From IMG/VR virus record IMGVR_UViG_2534682294_000013: 39,485 bases of DNA; one strand, written 5' to 3'. Under the pieces are notes generated by a model, which was given only the letters and a program-made list of their open reading frames with translations, was not told the DNA's origin and searched no databases. Below are positions 35,093 through 39,485 of this stretch, in pieces. How positions within the stretch are numbered: position 1 is the first letter of the stretch; every line of letters starts with the position of its first letter. The DNA is from a virus (taxonomy: Duplodnaviria; Heunggongvirae; Uroviricota; Caudoviricetes). The position numbers and the translations under genes were made by a program.

Positions 35093-35187
35093 GGAAGATC
35101 GTCGTCTCCGGTGAGGCGGCTGGACTTCAAATCCAGTTGGGGCCGCCAGCGGTCCCGGGCAGGTTCGACTCCTGTGATCTTCCGCCA
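35093..35187 (+). tRNA. selC: tRNA-Sec (selenocysteine, UCA anticodon)
   Basis: GGAAGATCGTCGTCTCCGGTGAGGCGGCTGGACTTCAAATCCAGTTGGGGCCGCCAGCGGTCCCGGGCAGGTTCGACTCCTGTGATCTTCCGCCA: 95 nt with long variable arm, ACTTCAAAT anticodon loop and encoded CCA; matches E. coli selC as remembered. Confidence 0.95.
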
Positions 35188-35349: not shown

Positions 35350-36537
35350 ATGGCTCTAACCGATATACAGATCAAACGTGCAAAACCACAAGACAAACCA
35401 TACACATTGAACGATGGACAAGGTCTGTCATTGCTTATCAATCCCGATGGCTCGAAAGGCTGGCGTTTCCGTTTCCGGTTTGCAGGGAAAGCGCGGTTAA
35501 TGTCATTTGGCAGCTACGATTTAGTAAGCCTCGCAGAAGCACGTGAGAAGCGTGATATCGCCCGTAAGCAGGTTGCTAATGGCATTGACCCGGTAGAGGA
35601 ACGCAAAGCTTTAAGACTCGCTCAAAAGCTATCAACAGAAAATTCTTTCGAAGCAATATGTCGAGAATGGTATACCAACAAAGCTGATCGCTGGACTGTA
35701 GCCTATCGAGAAGAAATCATTAGGACATTCGAGCAGGATGTCTTCCCGTTCATTGGTAAACGTCCTATCAGTGAAATCAAACCATTAGAACTGCTTGAAG
35801 TATTGCGACGAATAGAGAAACGAGGAGCACTAGAGAAGACCAGAAAAGTGCGCCAAAGATGCGGTGAGGTCTTTCGTTATGCAATCATAACTGGCCGAGC
35901 TGAATACAACCCAGCACCTGATTTAGCTATCGCTCTGGCCGTTCCTAAGCCAAAACACCACCCATTTTTATCTGTCGAAGAGTTGCCTTATTTTATTCGG
36001 GATTTGGAGGCATACTCCGGCAGCATAATCACCAAAAATGCAACTAAGATAGTTATGCTTACTGGTGTAAGAACGCAGGAGATGCGCTTTGCTACGTGGG
36101 AAGAGGTTGATTTGGATAAGGAGGTTTGGGAGATACCAGCGGAACGTATGAAAATGCGTAGGCCTCACATTGTTCCTTTATCTACTCAGGTAGTTGACCT
36201 TTTTAAACAGCTCAAACCAATTACCGGTCATTACCCTTACATCTTTATTGGCAGGAACAACCGTAGCAAACCGATCTCGAAAGAAAGTGTTTCACAAGTG
36301 ATTGAGTTACTTGGTTACAAAGGCCGTGCTACAGGTCATGGATTTAGACATACAATGTCAACAATATTACATGAACAAGGGTTTGACAGTGCCTGGATTG
36401 AGATGCAATTAGCACATGTTGATAAAAATTCTATTCGTGGAACATACAATCACGCACAATATTTAGAAAATAGACGCGCAATGCTTCAGTGGTATAGTAA
36501 CTTCATATTTAATAAAATTAGTGAAGACACACTTTGA
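35350..36537 (+). CDS. int: P4-family tyrosine integrase
   Basis: 395-aa ORF MALTDIQIKRAKPQDKPYTLNDGQGLSLLINPDGSKGWRFRFRFAGK... (typical P4-integrase N-terminus) with a C-terminal catalytic region (HGFRHT ... Y); 162 nt 3' of selC. Confidence 0.85.
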   Translation: MALTDIQIKRAKPQDKPYTLNDGQGLSLLINPDGSKGWRFRFRFAGKARLMSFGSYDLVSLAEAREKRDIARKQVANGIDPVEERKALRLAQKLSTENSFEAICREWYTNKADRWTVAYREEIIRTFEQDVFPFIGKRPISEIKPLELLEVLRRIEKRGALEKTRKVRQRCGEVFRYAIITGRAEYNPAPDLAIALAVPKPKHHPFLSVEELPYFIRDLEAYSGSIITKNATKIVMLTGVRTQEMRFATWEEVDLDKEVWEIPAERMKMRRPHIVPLSTQVVDLFKQLKPITGHYPYIFIGRNNRSKPISKESVSQVIELLGYKGRATGHGFRHTMSTILHEQGFDSAWIEMQLAHVDKNSIRGTYNHAQYLENRRAMLQWYSNFIFNKISEDTL

Positions 36538-36547
36538 TTTATAAATA

Positions 36548-36575
36548 AAAAGAGCCTCTTCCGAAGCTCTTTTTT
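36548..36575. terminator. bidirectional intrinsic terminator between convergent int and the cargo operon
   Basis: aaaagagc-ctcttccgaa-gctctttt: 8-bp stem flanked by an A-run 5' and a T-run 3', so it reads as hairpin plus U-run on both strands; 10 nt after the int stop and 7 nt after the small-ORF stop. Confidence 0.45.
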
Positions 36576-36581
36576 AATTGT

Positions 36582-36755
36582 TTATTTATTGTTCTTCAAT
36601 CTTTTATCTTCTTGTAAAACAAGATTATTTAACACTTTAATTGACTTGGAGGATAAATCATCTCCTCCTAACATATTTTTTTTCCATTCCGGCCATTCAT
36701 TAATTATTTTTTTAGTTGCAACCACATGTTTAATAAAACCATTTTCGATAGACAT
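36582..36755 (-). CDS. small basic protein, 57 aa, translationally coupled to the upstream deaminase-fusion gene
   Basis: Own translation, not in the ORF track: MSIENGFIKHVVATKKIINEWPEWKKNMLGGDDLSSKSIKVLNNLVLQEDKRLKNNK. ATG at 36753-36755 is 1 nt after the upstream stop; AGGAG (plus strand ctcct, 36762-36766) sits 6 nt upstream of the ATG. 57 stop-free codons in ~30% GC DNA. Confidence 0.5.
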   Translation of the reverse strand: MSIENGFIKHVVATKKIINEWPEWKKNMLGGDDLSSKSIKVLNNLVLQEDKRLKNNK

Positions 36756-36756
36756 G

Positions 36757-38277
36757 TTAAACTCCTATGATCTTTGCGAATAAGTTAACAGAAATCTGCT
36801 CTCTTTCCAAGTAAGAAATAGGCAACAGTGATATTCTTAATGACGAATTAGACTCAGTCCATTTAACAACATTTCCCGACTTATCTTTTCTCTTAATTTT
36901 ATTACCACTTCCATTAACAATGGAAAATAGATTAAAATAGACTCGTGGACCTATTCCAATAAAAGGTTCGAAAAGCACCTTTCCTTGGTTTTTTTCATCA
37001 TTAGTTATTGATTCTGAATGAAATTCATAAGCCTTACTTTTTGGATATGGCTCTATGTAAACCACCCTCTTTATTCCCGAAGCTATAATATGCTTAGCGC
37101 AGTTGTGGCATGGGAAAGTAGTGCAATATATATAAGCATCTTGAGTACTAATATTTGTTCTAGCGCATGCTAAAATAGCTTCCATTTCAGCATGCACCAC
37201 ACGACCATATTCCGTAATATCTTGAATCAGGCTGTTATTGAGGATTCTCTCAAAATTATCACGAGATTTTCTAGGTATTTGATTGAGAATATCATGTATA
37301 ATTTCTCTTTTTTGTTTAGCATTCGAATCAAAACCTCTTACATAGTCCCTTCCTTCCGGATAGTCTTCATAAATTTCGTTCTCTGCATTAAAATATGGCC
37401 AGTATAAACCACCACCAGACTTAGGAACATCATTAGCACCAGTTGACATAATAGCGTAATTTTTTGCTAATACAGCTCCAACTTGTCTTGATAAATCAGC
37501 AGATCTCAAAGCTGAAGAAAAGGCCATATACATTGCATATTCATCAAATGTTGGCGTAATAAAAGGATTACCGAATAGCAAATCAAAAACTCTTTTTATA
37601 TCATTATTAAGTTTATCATCTCGGCCATCTTGGTTTAAAAAGAAATCAGCCAAATGAAATGTATCTCTGGTATGCTGCCCATGCCCAGACTCTTCATCTT
37701 CATCTCTAGCAATCAATAACGCTGCTTTATCTTCTGGAATTCCTTTATTACGAATTAAATTATCTAACCTGCGACTCTCATCAGAAAAAATACCAAACAA
37801 TAAAAATCCCGAGCCATATACTTCTCTTAATTTATACACCTCTTCTGGATGCTTTATTGAATTTATAACATATGCAATTCCTTTTTTATTTATTTGTAAA
37901 CGTGCATGCTTTGCCCTAATCTCATTAATTTTAGCTATTGCTCCAAGAGCCAATATATAATTACATTCACTATCCTCCCTCAGTTTATTTCCCTTAGTCA
38001 TTAAGCCATCAATTCTTTGGTAATTATCTGTATAATCTCCATTACCTAAGAGCTCAGCTATCACATCAGATGAAATCCGAACTTCAGAACATTCAAATTT
38101 ATATAAGGATAATCTATCTCTTATTTTTTTTGTAATTGCTTCTAGGTCTGTGCCAACGGAAGAAACTAACCCTATTACCATTTCTGCTAAAGGTCCTGTG
38201 GATTGCTTATCCTCCCCTGAGTTTTTTAAAAGCTGAGGTGCTTCTTTATTCAATTCTGTTATCTTTGTAATTTTCAT
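36757..38277 (-). CDS. two-domain protein: unassigned N-terminal domain fused to a cytidine/dCMP-deaminase-like zinc-binding domain; candidate anti-phage deaminase
   Basis: 506-aa ORF. C-terminal half has the CDA-fold signature: FDEYAMYMAFSSALRSADLSRQVGAVLAKNYAIMSTGAND (aa 244-283), HAEMEAI (H362, E364) and PCHNC (C390, C393). N-terminal ~230 aa has a Gly-rich segment GLVSSVGTD but no canonical Walker A. AT-rich; lies between int and cos/psu. Confidence 0.85.
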   Translation of the reverse strand: MKITKITELNKEAPQLLKNSGEDKQSTGPLAEMVIGLVSSVGTDLEAITKKIRDRLSLYKFECSEVRISSDVIAELLGNGDYTDNYQRIDGLMTKGNKLREDSECNYILALGAIAKINEIRAKHARLQINKKGIAYVINSIKHPEEVYKLREVYGSGFLLFGIFSDESRRLDNLIRNKGIPEDKAALLIARDEDEESGHGQHTRDTFHLADFFLNQDGRDDKLNNDIKRVFDLLFGNPFITPTFDEYAMYMAFSSALRSADLSRQVGAVLAKNYAIMSTGANDVPKSGGGLYWPYFNAENEIYEDYPEGRDYVRGFDSNAKQKREIIHDILNQIPRKSRDNFERILNNSLIQDITEYGRVVHAEMEAILACARTNISTQDAYIYCTTFPCHNCAKHIIASGIKRVVYIEPYPKSKAYEFHSESITNDEKNQGKVLFEPFIGIGPRVYFNLFSIVNGSGNKIKRKDKSGNVVKWTESNSSLRISLLPISYLEREQISVNLFAKIIGV

Positions 38278-38475
38278 ATGAAGTCATTCATCCAGTGAAG
38301 ATACAAAACATTTTTATAAATAATTCTTAGCATGTTTTCTATGTTTTCATTAAATTTTTTGAATTACCTCATGTTTTACATTTAAGCAACACAAGGTAAA
38401 CAACTGTTATATAAGAAAATTGAAAGCATAATGAATGATGTAGTTGGCTGTCACGTCTTCCCACTTCGTAGGGCG

Positions 38476-38490
38476 GATTCAGGCTGAATC
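38476..38490. repeat. 15-bp perfect palindrome in the cargo-operon upstream region
   Basis: gattcag-g-ctgaatc: 7-bp inverted arms around one central nucleotide, ~200 nt upstream of the deaminase-fusion start codon. Confidence 0.4.
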
Positions 38491-38734
38491 ATAGATAGTT
38501 TTAGACCTCTTATAGGACCGAATGTATAAGATGAAGGTATTAGAGGAGCTGAGCGCCTTCAAAACCGCCACTCAGTATCTAAACCGGGCAATACTTTCTC
38601 GCCCCTAACTTAGCCACTCATGGGCTCATCACGCCATCAAACATTACTGCACGATCACTAATACTCGTTCGAAACGGCACAGTACTACGGTACACCAAGT
38701 CCCGCAAAAATAAATACATTACCGCTGGCGCGCA

Positions 38735-38753
38735 GTGCTTTCCCCGCCTCGCC
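38735..38753. other. P2/P4-type cos site (19-nt cohesive-end sequence)
   Basis: gtgctttccccgcctcgcc is the exact reverse complement of GGCGAGGCGGGGAAAGCAC, the P2/P4 cohesive end as I remember it; located just 3' of psu as in P4. Confidence 0.7.
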
Positions 38754-38856
38754 CGCCCGCTTTGCGGGGCGGTTTTAATGCAGTTTCACTGACACGCTCA
38801 GGCCGCGCCGGGAATGGCGCGGTCTGCAGAAAATGAGGCAGGAAAACGCATGCAAA

Positions 38857-38887
38857 GCCATGCACCTTATCGATGCATGGCTTTTTT
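38857..38887 (+). terminator. intrinsic terminator (strongest in + orientation) 30 nt beyond the psu stop
   Basis: gccatgca-ccttatcga-tgcatggc-tttttt: 8-bp stem plus T6 on the plus strand, preceded by AAA so it may act in both directions. Confidence 0.5.
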
Positions 38888-38917
38888 CAGTAAAAACGGG
38901 CGGATTTTCGGGGAGTT

Positions 38918-39485
38918 TTACACAGACTGATGTGATGCCAGTTGCGCACTTTTACGCGAAAAAATCATGTTCTGCGCAGGGGTGAATTTTTCACGGCTGT
39001 CATCCACCGAAGCCGCGTCAGGCCTGAATCCGATGGTCGTTAAAATGTCGCTATCCTGTGCGGAATAATTAATTTTTTCCCCCTTCGCAAGCCAGGACAG
39101 GAGGGCTTCACGCAGGGCATCTGTGGCACGCTGTATGGCACAGTTTCGGGCAATGGCCGTCAGCTCACTGTAACCCATCAGCTCCGGTGCCAGTGCGGCC
39201 GCCAGTACTGTGCCGTGCTGCTGCATAAAATCATTCAGCCGGTCGCGGATGCTGATGTGCTGAACGGCTTCATGCGAACGAATATAACGACCGGCGGCCT
39301 GATTCACCTGCCATTTTCTGACTTCGATAATATTGCGTAATTCGTCCAGGCGGCTGACGTTTCTGCCTTCTCCTGACAGAAGCCGCAGATATTCCTGTTC
39401 GGCCGCTGCCAGCTCATTTTTGCGTTGCAGCCATGCTGCTTTGTTATTCTGACAGGTGTCAAAGGCCTGCTGTAAGGCTGTGCTT
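38918..39485 (-). CDS. psu: P4 Psu-like polarity-suppression / capsid decoration protein (5' end ~5 nt beyond window)
   Basis: The frame of track ORF 38918-39307 stays open to the window edge. Own translation from the edge: STALQQAFDTCQNNKAAWLQRKNELAAAEQEYLRLLSGEGRNVSRLDELRNIIEVRKWQVNQAAGRYIRSHEAV...; resembles the P4 Psu N-terminus as remembered, and the implied length (~190 aa) fits. Confidence 0.65.
   Translation of the reverse strand, partial: STALQQAFDTCQNNKAAWLQRKNELAAAEQEYLRLLSGEGRNVSRLDELRNIIEVRKWQVNQAAGRYIRSHEAVQHISIRDRLNDFMQQHGTVLAAALAPELMGYSELTAIARNCAIQRATDALREALLSWLAKGEKINYSAQDSDILTTIGFRPDAASVDDSREKFTPAQNMIFSRKSAQLASHQSV

What the first reader, a model, noticed from the sequence alone, without database searches (positions are those of the whole stretch)
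38278..38734. 457-nt AT-rich non-coding region upstream of the cargo operon, with a perfect 15-bp palindrome; candidate control region or small RNA
Seen in sequence: between the deaminase-fusion start codon and the cos site there is no ORF of note on either strand. The first ~200 nt are very AT-rich with several -10-like hexamers (TATAAA, TATAAC on the minus strand). A perfect palindrome gattcag-g-ctgaatc lies at 38476-38490. Inference: the palindrome is a candidate operator for a dimeric regulator, possibly satellite- or helper-phage-encoded, that gates the cargo promoter. If this is a toxin-antitoxin-like deaminase, an RNA antitoxin could also be encoded here; I recall the described RNA antitoxin being encoded immediately upstream of its deaminase gene, orientation not remembered. 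Part of this region may instead be packaging sequence adjoining cos.
Basis: inference. Interest (0 to 1): 0.45.

Follow-up and report, generated by a model that had tools for sequence, protein, structure and literature searches.

The report
Cargo promoter plus non-functional hotspot spacer
The stretch between the packaging site of a P4-like satellite and its anti-phage dCTP deaminase gene is an ordinary intergenic region, made of a conserved promoter next to the gene and about 290 bases of lineage-specific filler, and the palindrome in it is a chance feature rather than an operator or an RNA antitoxin.

Summary
The sequence facts hold. There is no ORF of note, the palindrome GATTCAGGCTGAATC lies at 38476-38490, and TATAAA and TATAAC hexamers are on the minus strand. 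Only the gene-proximal 153 nt are AT-rich (24% GC); the remaining 290 nt are 45% GC.

The interval has three parts.
- **38721-38734:** the last 14 nt of the cos region shared with P4 and P2-like phages.
- **38431-38720:** a non-coding spacer found only in this satellite lineage. It has no detectable counterpart at 10 of 11 other related deaminase loci. It shows no conserved structure, no terminator, no repeats and no Rfam match. Against the Raoultella lineage it has diverged at about the neutral rate.
- **38278-38430:** the cassette's control region. A sigma-70-type promoter, TAGAAA-17-TATAAA (38341-38313), has a TATAA core invariant in 11 loci, one of them outside any satellite.

The palindrome is expected by chance in about 15% of such intervals. 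It is broken, without compensation, in the closest divergent homologue. An AvcI-type RNA antitoxin is not supported, because several relatives have only 26-141 nt upstream of the gene.

Seen in passing: a conserved, unannotated 57-aa ORF directly after the deaminase gene, found across phyla.

The parts
38735..38753 (-). 19-nt cos cohesive-end sequence GGCGAGGCGGGGAAAGCAC; the right-hand boundary of the finding
   Evidence: Window 38754 aligns to the last base (11624) of the linear P4 genome. Sequence read. Aligned to P4 positions 1-19. That these 19 nt are the cohesive end is from my own knowledge of P2/P4.
38721..38734 (.). End of the cos packaging region shared by P4-like satellites and P2-like helpers
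   Evidence: About 1700 E. coli genomes match the window only from about 38721 (a few from 38702) onward. Matches to the cos region of P2-like phages span 38721-38882. No substitutions against L102 in these 14 nt.
38581..38712 (-). Distal spacer segment: non-coding, homologous to the same position in the Raoultella-type satellite (L003/L085) at about 60% identity, with no conserved structure
   Evidence: The sequence-only model R2 hits L085 and L003 at 28 and 27 bits, E 2e-7 to 5e-7. The model with structure, R1, scores lower at 23 bits. Pair counts are no better than shuffles. Four-fold-site divergence window-L003 is 41%.
38431..38580 (.). Middle spacer segment: found only in the window / L112 / L102 / L103 lineage; no ORF, no match anywhere else
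   Evidence: loci; E. coli genomes; plasmids, phages; IMG/VR. 9.5% divergence from L102.
38476..38490 (.). Perfect 7-1-7 palindrome GATTCAGGCTGAATC; a chance feature
   Evidence: chance level. Broken in L102/L103, where minus-strand GATTCAGCCTGAATC becomes GATCCTGCCTGAATC. Weak hairpin of -3.8 to -4.4 kcal/mol.
38425..38454 (-). Weak second promoter-like site GTGACA-18-TATGCT at the spacer/cassette junction
   Evidence: The only hit of the consensus scan in 38100-39000 (1 site found, 2.1 expected in shuffles). Kept in L102/L103 as GTGACA-18-TATACT. No counterpart seen in more distant loci.
38342..38430 (-). AT-rich stretch upstream of the core promoter; partly conserved motif ATGAkrTAAT.CAAA about 90-100 nt before the ATG
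   Evidence: GC is about 24% over the proximal 153 nt that contain this stretch. 80% identical to L003 over 38426-38305. 19% divergence from L102, which is not below the four-fold-site rate. Alignment A2.
38313..38341 (-). Core sigma-70-type promoter of the deaminase cassette: -35 TAGAAA (38341-38336), 17-nt spacer, -10 TATAAA (38318-38313); transcription start predicted near 38306
   Evidence: TATAA is invariant or nearly so, and the -35-like AGAAA is largely conserved at fixed spacing, in 11 loci with 68-100% identical deaminases. These include L099, which lies outside any satellite. 2 of 29 substitutions against L102. The scan tool skips this site because it requires T at position 6 of the -10 hexamer.
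38278..38312 (-). Short 5' leader with a purine-rich Shine-Dalgarno-like stretch (GGATGA, 38293-38288)
   Evidence: 2 of 35 substitutions against L102.
36757..38277 (-). Anti-phage dCTP deaminase (AvcD/DcdV family), 506 aa
   Evidence: NCBIfam NF041025, 470.7 bits against a cutoff of 400. PADLOC dCTPase, 1.2e-168. Pfam dCMP_cyt_deam_1. RefSeq product name.
36582..36755 (-). 57-aa ORF starting 1 nt after the deaminase stop; conserved small protein with a WPEWKK motif
   Evidence: No Pfam, PADLOC or NCBIfam family.
36547..36574 (-). Intrinsic terminator hairpin closing the cassette, between the small ORF and int
   Evidence: 12-bp stem, -15.9 kcal/mol, z = -5.9, followed by UUUUUAUUU.
38854..38884 (-). 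Terminator hairpin between psu and cos; likely to stop P4 late-operon transcripts before they reach the finding region
   Evidence: 13-bp stem, -22 kcal/mol, z = -3.8, followed by UUUGCAUGCGUUUU.

Best explanation
The interval is a composite intergenic region in the defence hotspot of a P4-like satellite integrated at tRNA-Sec. It has three parts.

1. **38721-38734:** the tail of the cos packaging region.
2. **38431-38720:** about 290 nt of satellite-lineage spacer, 45% GC. It was most likely left by recombination at the hotspot, comparable to the 246-nt cos-gop leader of P4. It has no sequence-specific function, and the palindrome in it is a chance feature.
3. **38278-38430:** the AT-rich 5' control region that travels with the deaminase cassette.

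The cassette is self-contained. A sigma-70-type promoter (TAGAAA-17-TATAAA, 38341-38313) starts transcription near 38306. A leader of about 30 nt with a Shine-Dalgarno-like stretch leads into the dCTP deaminase gene, then the translationally coupled 57-aa ORF. Transcription ends at the hairpin at 36547-36574. A terminator hairpin after psu (38854-38884) is likely to stop P4 late-operon transcripts before they reach the cassette.

Shown here: homology boundaries, base composition, conservation of the promoter motif, and the lack of conservation or structure in the spacer. Inferred: promoter activity, the transcription start, and that the spacer is dispensable.
For: **Boundaries**
- P4 backbone and P2-like cos homology stop at about 38721.
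- Homology with the closest other deaminase loci resumes only at about 38426 (L003, 80% identity) or about 38388 (L002).
- GC steps from 24% (38278-38430) to 45% (38431-38720) to 54% (38721-39485, cos to psu).

**Promoter**
- The TATAA core is invariant, and a -35-like hexamer sits 17 nt upstream, in 11 loci including a non-satellite context.
- Promoter and leader diverge 6-7% from L102, against 15.3% at four-fold sites of the gene.

**Spacer**
- No detectable counterpart (blastn, nhmmer, covariance models) at L002/L082, L004, L005/L094, L086, L087, L090, L099, L100, L006 or L007, that is 10 of 11 other related deaminase loci. The exception is 130 nt in L003/L085.
- cos-to-ATG distance ranges from 128 to about 560 nt.
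- Window versus L003: about 60% identity in the one alignable piece, equal to the 59% identity at four-fold sites.
- L003 versus L085: upstream 3.6% divergent against 1.8% at four-fold sites.
- The sequence-only model beats the structure model, and there is no covariation.
- Folding z-scores are -0.67, +0.43 and -1.46.
- No Rfam family, no tandem repeats, no ORF, and no match in plasmids, phages or other IMG/VR contigs.
- A 2026 survey of P4/P2 hotspots describes small intergenic stretches in defence loci as likely remnants of intense recombination (PMC13586616).

**Transcription-unit limits**
- Terminator hairpins at 36547-36574 and 38854-38884.
Against: - Within the lineage, the spacer differs from L102 at 24 of 289 sites (8.3%), below the 15.3% at four-fold sites (Fisher p = 0.03). 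This could mean mild constraint. It could equally reflect mosaic ancestry or non-neutral four-fold sites.
- A second promoter-like site (38454-38425) is kept in L102, so part of the spacer may be transcribed as a long leader.
- AvcI RNAs of different species share no sequence similarity (bioRxiv 10.1101/2021.03.31.437871), so lack of conservation alone cannot exclude a fast-evolving RNA.
- Only two independent variants of the spacer were available.
- No transcript data were available.
Confidence: 0.7

Rival explanations
1. The 45%-GC segment (about 38431-38720, minus strand) encodes a lineage-specific AvcI/DifV-type RNA that binds and inhibits the deaminase until phage-induced transcription shut-off lets it decay.
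For: - The gene is a true AvcD-family dCTP deaminase.
- AvcI lies immediately 5' of avcD on the same strand, is 152-174 nt at minimum and about 280 nt as a transcript, has no terminator before avcD, and shows no sequence similarity between species.
- The segment has the right size and side.
- Its within-lineage divergence (8.3%) is below that of four-fold sites (15.3%, p = 0.03).
Against: - Deaminases 88-90% identical (L003/L085, L002/L082) have this segment replaced, diverged to about 60% identity, or cut away by an IS element, yet keep an intact gene.
- Relatives have only 128 nt (Yersinia), 141 nt (L099), 65 nt (L006) or 26 nt (L007) upstream, and 99-125 nt in Acinetobacter and Vibrio loci.
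- The conserved promoter lies downstream of the segment. No promoter-like site was found upstream of it, and a terminator hairpin follows psu.
- Structure adds nothing to the homology score and there is no covariation. Folding z = -0.67.
Confidence: 0.08
2. The palindrome at 38476-38490 is an operator or activator site for a dimeric regulator, satellite- or helper-encoded, that gates cargo expression.
For: It is a perfect 7-1-7 palindrome that occurs once in the window. Its near edge lies 22 nt upstream of the -35 of the weak promoter-like site at 38454-38425, a position compatible with an activator.
Against: - It is at chance level: 0.68 such palindromes per kb in the window, and 14.7% of simulated intervals have one.
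- Two uncompensated substitutions in one arm in L102/L103, although the flanks are conserved.
- Absent from the other homologous loci compared.
- Its centre is about 140 nt upstream of the conserved -35, too far for a repressor of that promoter.
Confidence: 0.03
3. The deaminase is also transcribed from the upstream promoter-like site (start near 38418). This would give a ~140-nt AT-rich leader that acts in cis, for example as a target of H-NS silencing or Rho-dependent attenuation, the latter possibly relieved by Psu.
For: - GTGACA-18-TATGCT at 38454-38425 is the only consensus-scan hit, and it is kept (TATACT) in L102/L103.
- The stretch is 24% GC, which is typical of H-NS-bound foreign DNA (general knowledge).
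- Psu, the Rho inhibitor, is the neighbouring gene.
Against: - The scan finds 1 site where shuffles give 2.1.
- The site has no counterpart in loci beyond L102/L103.
- 38342-38430 diverges 19% from L102, not below neutral.
- Relatives with 26-141 nt upstream cannot have such a leader.
Confidence: 0.12
4. The cos-proximal part of the interval (up to about 38590) is extended packaging or late-transcript sequence of this satellite lineage.
For: The segment 38581-38712 is homologous, at the same position next to cos, in a second satellite lineage (L003/L085; E about 1e-7). Its GC content is closer to the backbone than to the cargo.
Against: - P2-like helpers, which supply the terminase, share homology only down to 38721.
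- P4 itself and about 1700 E. coli P4-like elements diverge by about 38700-38721.
- Other deaminase-carrying satellites lack the segment and have 128-215 nt between cos and the gene.
- Identity between the two lineages is at the neutral level.
Confidence: 0.05

Closest known systems
AvcI (DifV) RNA antitoxin of the AvcID system (Vibrio cholerae VSP-1; homologues tested from V. parahaemolyticus, Proteus mirabilis and E. coli H10407)
   Same: The neighbouring gene is an AvcD-family dCTP deaminase. The interval lies on the 5' side of it, is non-coding, and is long enough to hold a 170-280-nt RNA.
   Different: There is no evidence of an RNA gene. The conserved promoter is downstream of the candidate segment, and the segment is not retained with closely related deaminases. 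There is no conserved structure. Many family members have far too little upstream space. Inhibition of the enzyme could not be tested.
cos-gop leader of satellite phage P4 (P4 positions 20-246)
   Same: Same position: a non-coding stretch of a few hundred nt between the cos end and the first gene of the psu-int hotspot, on the same strand. The first ~50 nt after cos are similar.
   Different: Beyond about 50 nt there is no sequence similarity. The cargo is a deaminase cassette with its own AT-rich promoter, not gop-beta-cII.
Intergenic remnants in P4/P2 defence hotspots (Nucleic Acids Res 2026, PMC13586616)
   Same: A short non-coding stretch inside a defence locus with no recognisable homology, flanked by a swapped defence cassette. 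That paper's interpretation is that such stretches are leftovers of intense recombination.
   Different: I found no trace of a former gene (no frame longer than 59 aa), so a pseudogene origin is not shown. I did not run a translated search against a large protein database.
ToxI-type type III antitoxin RNAs
   Same: The idea of an RNA encoded upstream of a toxin gene in a phage-defence locus.
   Different: ToxI-type antitoxins are tandem direct repeats followed by a terminator. No tandem repeats and no intrinsic terminator lie between the region and the gene.

Membership tests
AvcI/DifV RNA antitoxin | Non-coding RNA gene immediately 5' of avcD on the same strand | tested here: inconclusive
   A non-coding interval exists on that side, but nothing marks an RNA gene in it. 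There is no Rfam hit, no promoter-like site upstream of 38454 on the minus strand, and no unusual folding energy.
AvcI/DifV RNA antitoxin | Transcribed together with avcD from a start site upstream of the RNA | not testable with these tools
   No transcript data. The prediction points the other way: the only promoter motif conserved across relatives (38341-38313) lies between the candidate segment and the gene, and a terminator hairpin follows psu.
AvcI/DifV RNA antitoxin | An RNA of at least about 150-170 nt kept with its cognate deaminase in related loci | tested here: not met
   Segment 38431-38720 has no detectable counterpart at 10 of 11 other related deaminase loci. It is about 60% identical over only 130 nt in L003/L085, whose deaminase is 88-89% identical. 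Upstream space is 26-141 nt in L007, L006, L094 and L099.
AvcI/DifV RNA antitoxin | Conserved secondary structure with compensatory changes | tested here: not met
   Structure model 23 bits against sequence-only model 27-28 bits on L003/L085. 3 pairs change on both sides against 3.1 in shuffles. No double changes window-L102. Power is low, with only 2-4 distinct sequences.
AvcI/DifV RNA antitoxin | Binds and inhibits AvcD after translation; labile, decays on transcription shut-off | not testable with these tools
   Needs experiments: co-expression and filamentation assay, Northern blot after rifampicin.
ToxI-type type III antitoxin | Tandem direct repeats upstream of the toxin gene, followed by a terminator | tested here: not met
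   Tandem Repeats Finder found 0 arrays at score 30 or above in 38200-38800. Only three trivial two-copy direct repeats. No terminator-like site between 38720 and 38278.
Sigma-70-type promoter / 5' control region of the cargo cassette | -35 and -10 hexamers at 16-18-nt spacing, a suitable distance upstream of the start codon | tested here: met
   TAGAAA (4/6) - 17 nt - TATAAA (5/6) at 38341-38313; the -10 ends 36 nt before the ATG.
Sigma-70-type promoter / 5' control region of the cargo cassette | Motif conserved in position in orthologous loci | tested here: met
   The TATAA core is invariant or at least 90% conserved, and the -35-like hexamer is aligned, in 11 loci with 68-100% identical deaminases, including the non-satellite locus L099. 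6.9% divergence against 15.3% at four-fold sites.
Sigma-70-type promoter / 5' control region of the cargo cassette | Transcription starts there | not testable with these tools
   Needs 5' RACE, dRNA-seq or a reporter fusion.
P4/P2 cos packaging region | Homology to the cos region of P4 and of P2-like helper phages | tested here: not met
   This holds only for 38721-38734. P2-like matches span 38721-38882, and the P4 right end maps to 38754. About 1700 E. coli genomes match only from 38702-38721 onward. P4 left-end similarity fades about 50 nt after the cos end.
Operator for a dimeric regulator | Palindrome conserved in homologous loci, rarer than chance, and placed at a promoter | tested here: not met
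   Broken in L102/L103 and absent elsewhere. Chance probability about 0.15. Its centre is about 140 nt upstream of the conserved -35.

The most novel reading that the evidence does not exclude
The 290-nt, 45%-GC segment (38431-38720) is a fast-evolving, lineage-specific AvcI-like RNA that restrains this deaminase. The weak within-lineage constraint (8.3% against 15.3% divergence, p = 0.03) would be its only trace. Related lineages would then carry non-homologous RNAs, or rely on another partner such as the conserved 57-aa protein encoded directly after the gene.
Probability: 0.07. Interest if true: 0.45.

Novelty: already known. Interest (0 to 1): 0.12.

Why it matters
For this finding, little. 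It shows that a defence cassette in a P4 hotspot carries its own short promoter, and that the extra sequence next to cos is filler. That fits published views of rapid cassette swapping in these hotspots.

It is useful as a caution. The AvcI model from Vibrio cholerae cannot be carried over by position alone to every dCTP deaminase locus, because many relatives have under 130 nt upstream.

The more promising lead lies outside the finding. A small WPEWKK-motif protein is encoded immediately after the deaminase gene in at least 114 of 176 loci across several phyla. Neither the defence-system databases I searched nor the papers I found mention it.

Tried and rejected
- **Rfam** at E up to 10 over 36400-39485: only noise.
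- **Folding energy** of both strands against shuffles: unremarkable.
- **blastn of the spacer** against plasmids and phages: no match.
- **Exact-pattern scans of IMG/VR:** two spacer patterns returned only the two contigs already found through the protein. The palindrome pattern and two patterns aimed at the L003-type segment returned nothing.
- **H10407 AvcID locus:** I looked for the experimentally tested E. coli H10407 locus by blastn. I found only a different E. coli variant, near yecA, with a long-form deaminase, a 522-nt upstream gap and no small ORF. It is frameshifted in ETEC1731. H10407 itself did not appear.
- **Hsueh et al. 2022:** the Nature Microbiology version is not held, so I used its preprint.
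- **Hairpin near cos** (38644-38684): it looked compensated between window, L102 and L003. However, L085 breaks it, its energy is ordinary (z = -0.15), and overall pair statistics match shuffles. Rejected as evidence of structure.
- **Small ORF as replacement for AvcI:** I considered whether presence of the small downstream ORF and a long upstream region exclude each other. They do not cleanly, since Vibrio loci have the small ORF. I dropped the idea that it replaces AvcI.
- **Direct repeat** 38460-38479 / 38756-38775 (75%): considered as a degenerate second cos flank; too short to separate from chance.

Full report
**Context.** The end of the window is a P4-like satellite integrated next to tRNA-Sec (35093-35187).
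- int lies at 35350-36537 (+).
- A 57-aa ORF (36582-36755) and a 506-aa gene (36757-38277) lie on the minus strand.
- The finding region follows, then cos, then psu.
- The 506-aa protein is an anti-phage dCTP deaminase of the AvcD/DcdV family: NCBIfam NF041025 at 470.7 bits against a cutoff of 400, PADLOC dCTPase at 1.2e-168, and Pfam dCMP_cyt_deam_1.
- Twelve of 5426 complete E. coli genomes carry the deaminase gene (99.7-100% identical) with an identical upstream region.

**Observation.**
- The coordinates are exact. The ATG is at 38277-38275 on the minus strand, and the 19-nt cos end occupies 38753-38735. Window 38754 aligns to the last base of the linear P4 genome.
- No ORF with a start codon exceeds 33 aa, and RefSeq annotates nothing here.
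- The palindrome GATTCAGGCTGAATC is at 38476-38490.
- 'AT-rich' holds only for 38278-38430 (24% GC). The segment 38431-38720 is 45% GC, above the gene's 34%.
- The palindrome is not unusual. The window holds 27 perfect palindromes of this class (0.68 per kb), and 14.7% of simulated 457-nt intervals contain one.

**Where the backbone ends.**
- A sensitive blastn of gene plus region against all E. coli genomes gave about 1700 genomes that match only from window 38721 onward, a few from about 38702.
- P2-like helper phages match 38721-38882, which is the shared cos region.
- P4's own left end is similar for about 50 nt past the cos end and then unrelated. P4 has a 246-nt non-coding leader before gop.
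- So at most the last 14-30 nt of the interval are packaging or backbone sequence.

**Where the cassette begins.** I collected about 190 loci encoding relatives of the deaminase.
- With the closest distinct lineages, upstream similarity is confined to the gene-proximal 110-150 nt. These lineages are Raoultella-type L003/L085 (88-89% amino-acid identity) and Scandinavium L002/L082 (90%).
- In the Scandinavium locus an IS element replaces everything beyond about 190 nt upstream, and the integrase is fragmented, yet the deaminase gene is intact.
- The distance from cos to the start codon is about 450 nt in the window and about 560 nt in L003.
- It is only about 200 nt in L086, L087 and L100, and 128 nt in Yersinia (L005/L094).
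- L099, outside any satellite, has 141 nt to the upstream gene.
- More distant relatives have 26-125 nt to a large upstream ORF.

**The promoter.** An alignment of 11 distinct upstream regions shows one motif conserved in position. A TATAA core is invariant or nearly so, with a -35-like hexamer 17 nt upstream.
- In the window this is TAGAAA (38341-38336) and TATAAA (38318-38313), 36 nt before the ATG.
- The consensus scan missed it only because it requires T at the last -10 position.
- Against L102/L103 (96% identical deaminase, whole upstream region 88% identical), the promoter and leader differ at 6-7% of sites. Four-fold degenerate sites of the gene differ at 15.3%.
- A 12-bp terminator hairpin (36547-36574, z = -5.9) closes the unit after the 57-aa ORF.
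- A 13-bp hairpin after psu (38854-38884, z = -3.8) precedes cos.
- The cassette therefore looks like a self-contained operon. Promoter activity is inferred, not shown.

**The spacer, 38431-38720.**
- It occurs only in the window, L112 and L102/L103. It has no match in plasmids or phages.
- Its cos-proximal 130 nt are homologous to the same position in L003/L085. A sequence-only model gives 27-28 bits, E about 2e-7 to 5e-7.
- Identity there is about 60%, the same as at four-fold sites between these lineages (41% divergence). The piece has drifted at about the neutral rate.
- The model that includes predicted structure scores lower, at 23 bits. Pair counts equal shuffles: 3 pairs with double changes against 3.1. 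Window against L102 shows no compensatory pair.
- Folding z-scores are -0.67 (minus strand), +0.43 (plus strand) and -1.46 (whole interval).
- Rfam gives nothing, there are no tandem repeats, and no terminator-like site lies inside the interval.
- In the independent pair L003/L085, the upstream region is more divergent (3.6%) than four-fold sites (1.8%).
- One point goes the other way. Window against L102 differs at 8.3% of spacer sites against 15.3% at four-fold sites (p = 0.03).
- A weak promoter-like site (38454-38425) is kept in L102.

**The palindrome.** In L102/L103 the flanks are conserved. One arm, however, carries two substitutions with no change in the other arm: GATTCAGCCTGAATC becomes GATCCTGCCTGAATC on the minus strand. 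It is absent from all other loci.

**The RNA-antitoxin idea.**
AvcI (DifV) lies immediately 5' of avcD on the same strand and is co-transcribed with it. It needs 152-174 nt and runs at about 280 nt. It has no terminator before avcD and no sequence similarity between species.
- Position and size are compatible with the spacer.
- The comparative evidence speaks against it. Near-identical deaminases do not keep the segment, many relatives have no room for such an RNA, the conserved promoter is downstream of it, and no structure is conserved.
- Because AvcI RNAs evolve fast, and only two variants of the spacer exist in the data, I leave this at about 8%.

**Verdict.** This is an ordinary intergenic region made of the tail of cos, a lineage-specific spacer and the cassette's promoter. 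That fits the description of intergenic remnants in P4 hotspots (PMC13586616).

**Seen in passing.**
- The 57-aa ORF that starts 1 nt after the deaminase stop is a conserved protein with an N-terminal F-I-K-H-I-V-x-T-K...W-P-E-W-K-K motif.
- It was found immediately after the gene, on the same strand, in at least 114 of 176 loci. These include Photorhabdus, Pseudomonas, Vibrio, Planctomycetota, Myxococcota and Paenibacillaceae.
- Every source calls it hypothetical. It has no Pfam, PADLOC or NCBIfam family.
- I found no paper that mentions it, and the preprint describing the dCTP deaminase defence genes does not either.

Noticed in passing
window 36582-36755 (-); also L003 4456-4629, L006 4484-4669, L012 4410-4589, L010 4443-4619 and many others: A 53-57-aa ORF starts 1 nt after the deaminase stop. 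It encodes a conserved small protein (motif FIKHIVxTKxxVxxWPEWKK, then a variable Lys-rich tail). It sits immediately 3' of the dCTP deaminase gene in at least 114 of 176 loci across several phyla. Every source calls it hypothetical. It has no Pfam, PADLOC or NCBIfam family, and only a weak match to phrog_38465. It may be an undescribed partner of this defence enzyme.
   Followed up: partly
window 36547-36574: A 12-bp GC-rich hairpin flanked by A-runs and T-runs lies between the small ORF and the convergent int gene (-15.9 kcal/mol, z = -5.9). It is probably a terminator for both strands (also visible).
   Followed up: partly
window 38854-38884: A 13-bp hairpin between psu and cos (-22 kcal/mol, z = -3.8) has T-runs on both strands. 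It is likely the terminator of the P4 late operon, and of any rightward transcript leaving the hotspot.
   Followed up: partly
L082 1-3407, L083 1-124: In a Scandinavium MAG, the 90%-identical deaminase cassette has an IS (rve_3 transposase) inserted about 190 nt upstream. The satellite integrase is broken into four fragments. The deaminase and small ORF remain intact, so the cassette outlives a decaying satellite.
   Followed up: partly
L089 3233-5523 (E. coli ETEC1731, next to yecA) and 17 other E. coli genomes: A second, unrelated-context E. coli dCTP deaminase variant. It is long-form, with a 522-nt upstream intergenic region and no small downstream ORF. In ETEC1731 it is split into two annotated genes, probably by a frameshift.
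   Followed up: partly
loci L008, L009, L016, L026, L029, L032, L033, L069, L078: The deaminase family has two length classes: about 500 aa, as here, and about 585-610 aa with an extra N-terminal stretch of about 110 aa, mostly in Pseudomonas and environmental bacteria.
   Followed up: no
L011 2492-2809, L021 2506-2811: In two Vibrio loci, a 101-105-aa ORF on the same strand ends about 125 nt upstream of the deaminase gene. The whole ~590 nt upstream region that contains it is 72% identical between them. It might correspond to the 'small ORF' region that holds AvcI in Vibrio. I did not test whether it is coding or RNA.
   Followed up: no
window 38460-38479 and 38756-38775: A 20-nt direct repeat (75% identical) links the spacer to the GC-rich hairpin beside cos. 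It could be a degenerate second cos flank, but it is too short to separate from chance.
   Followed up: no
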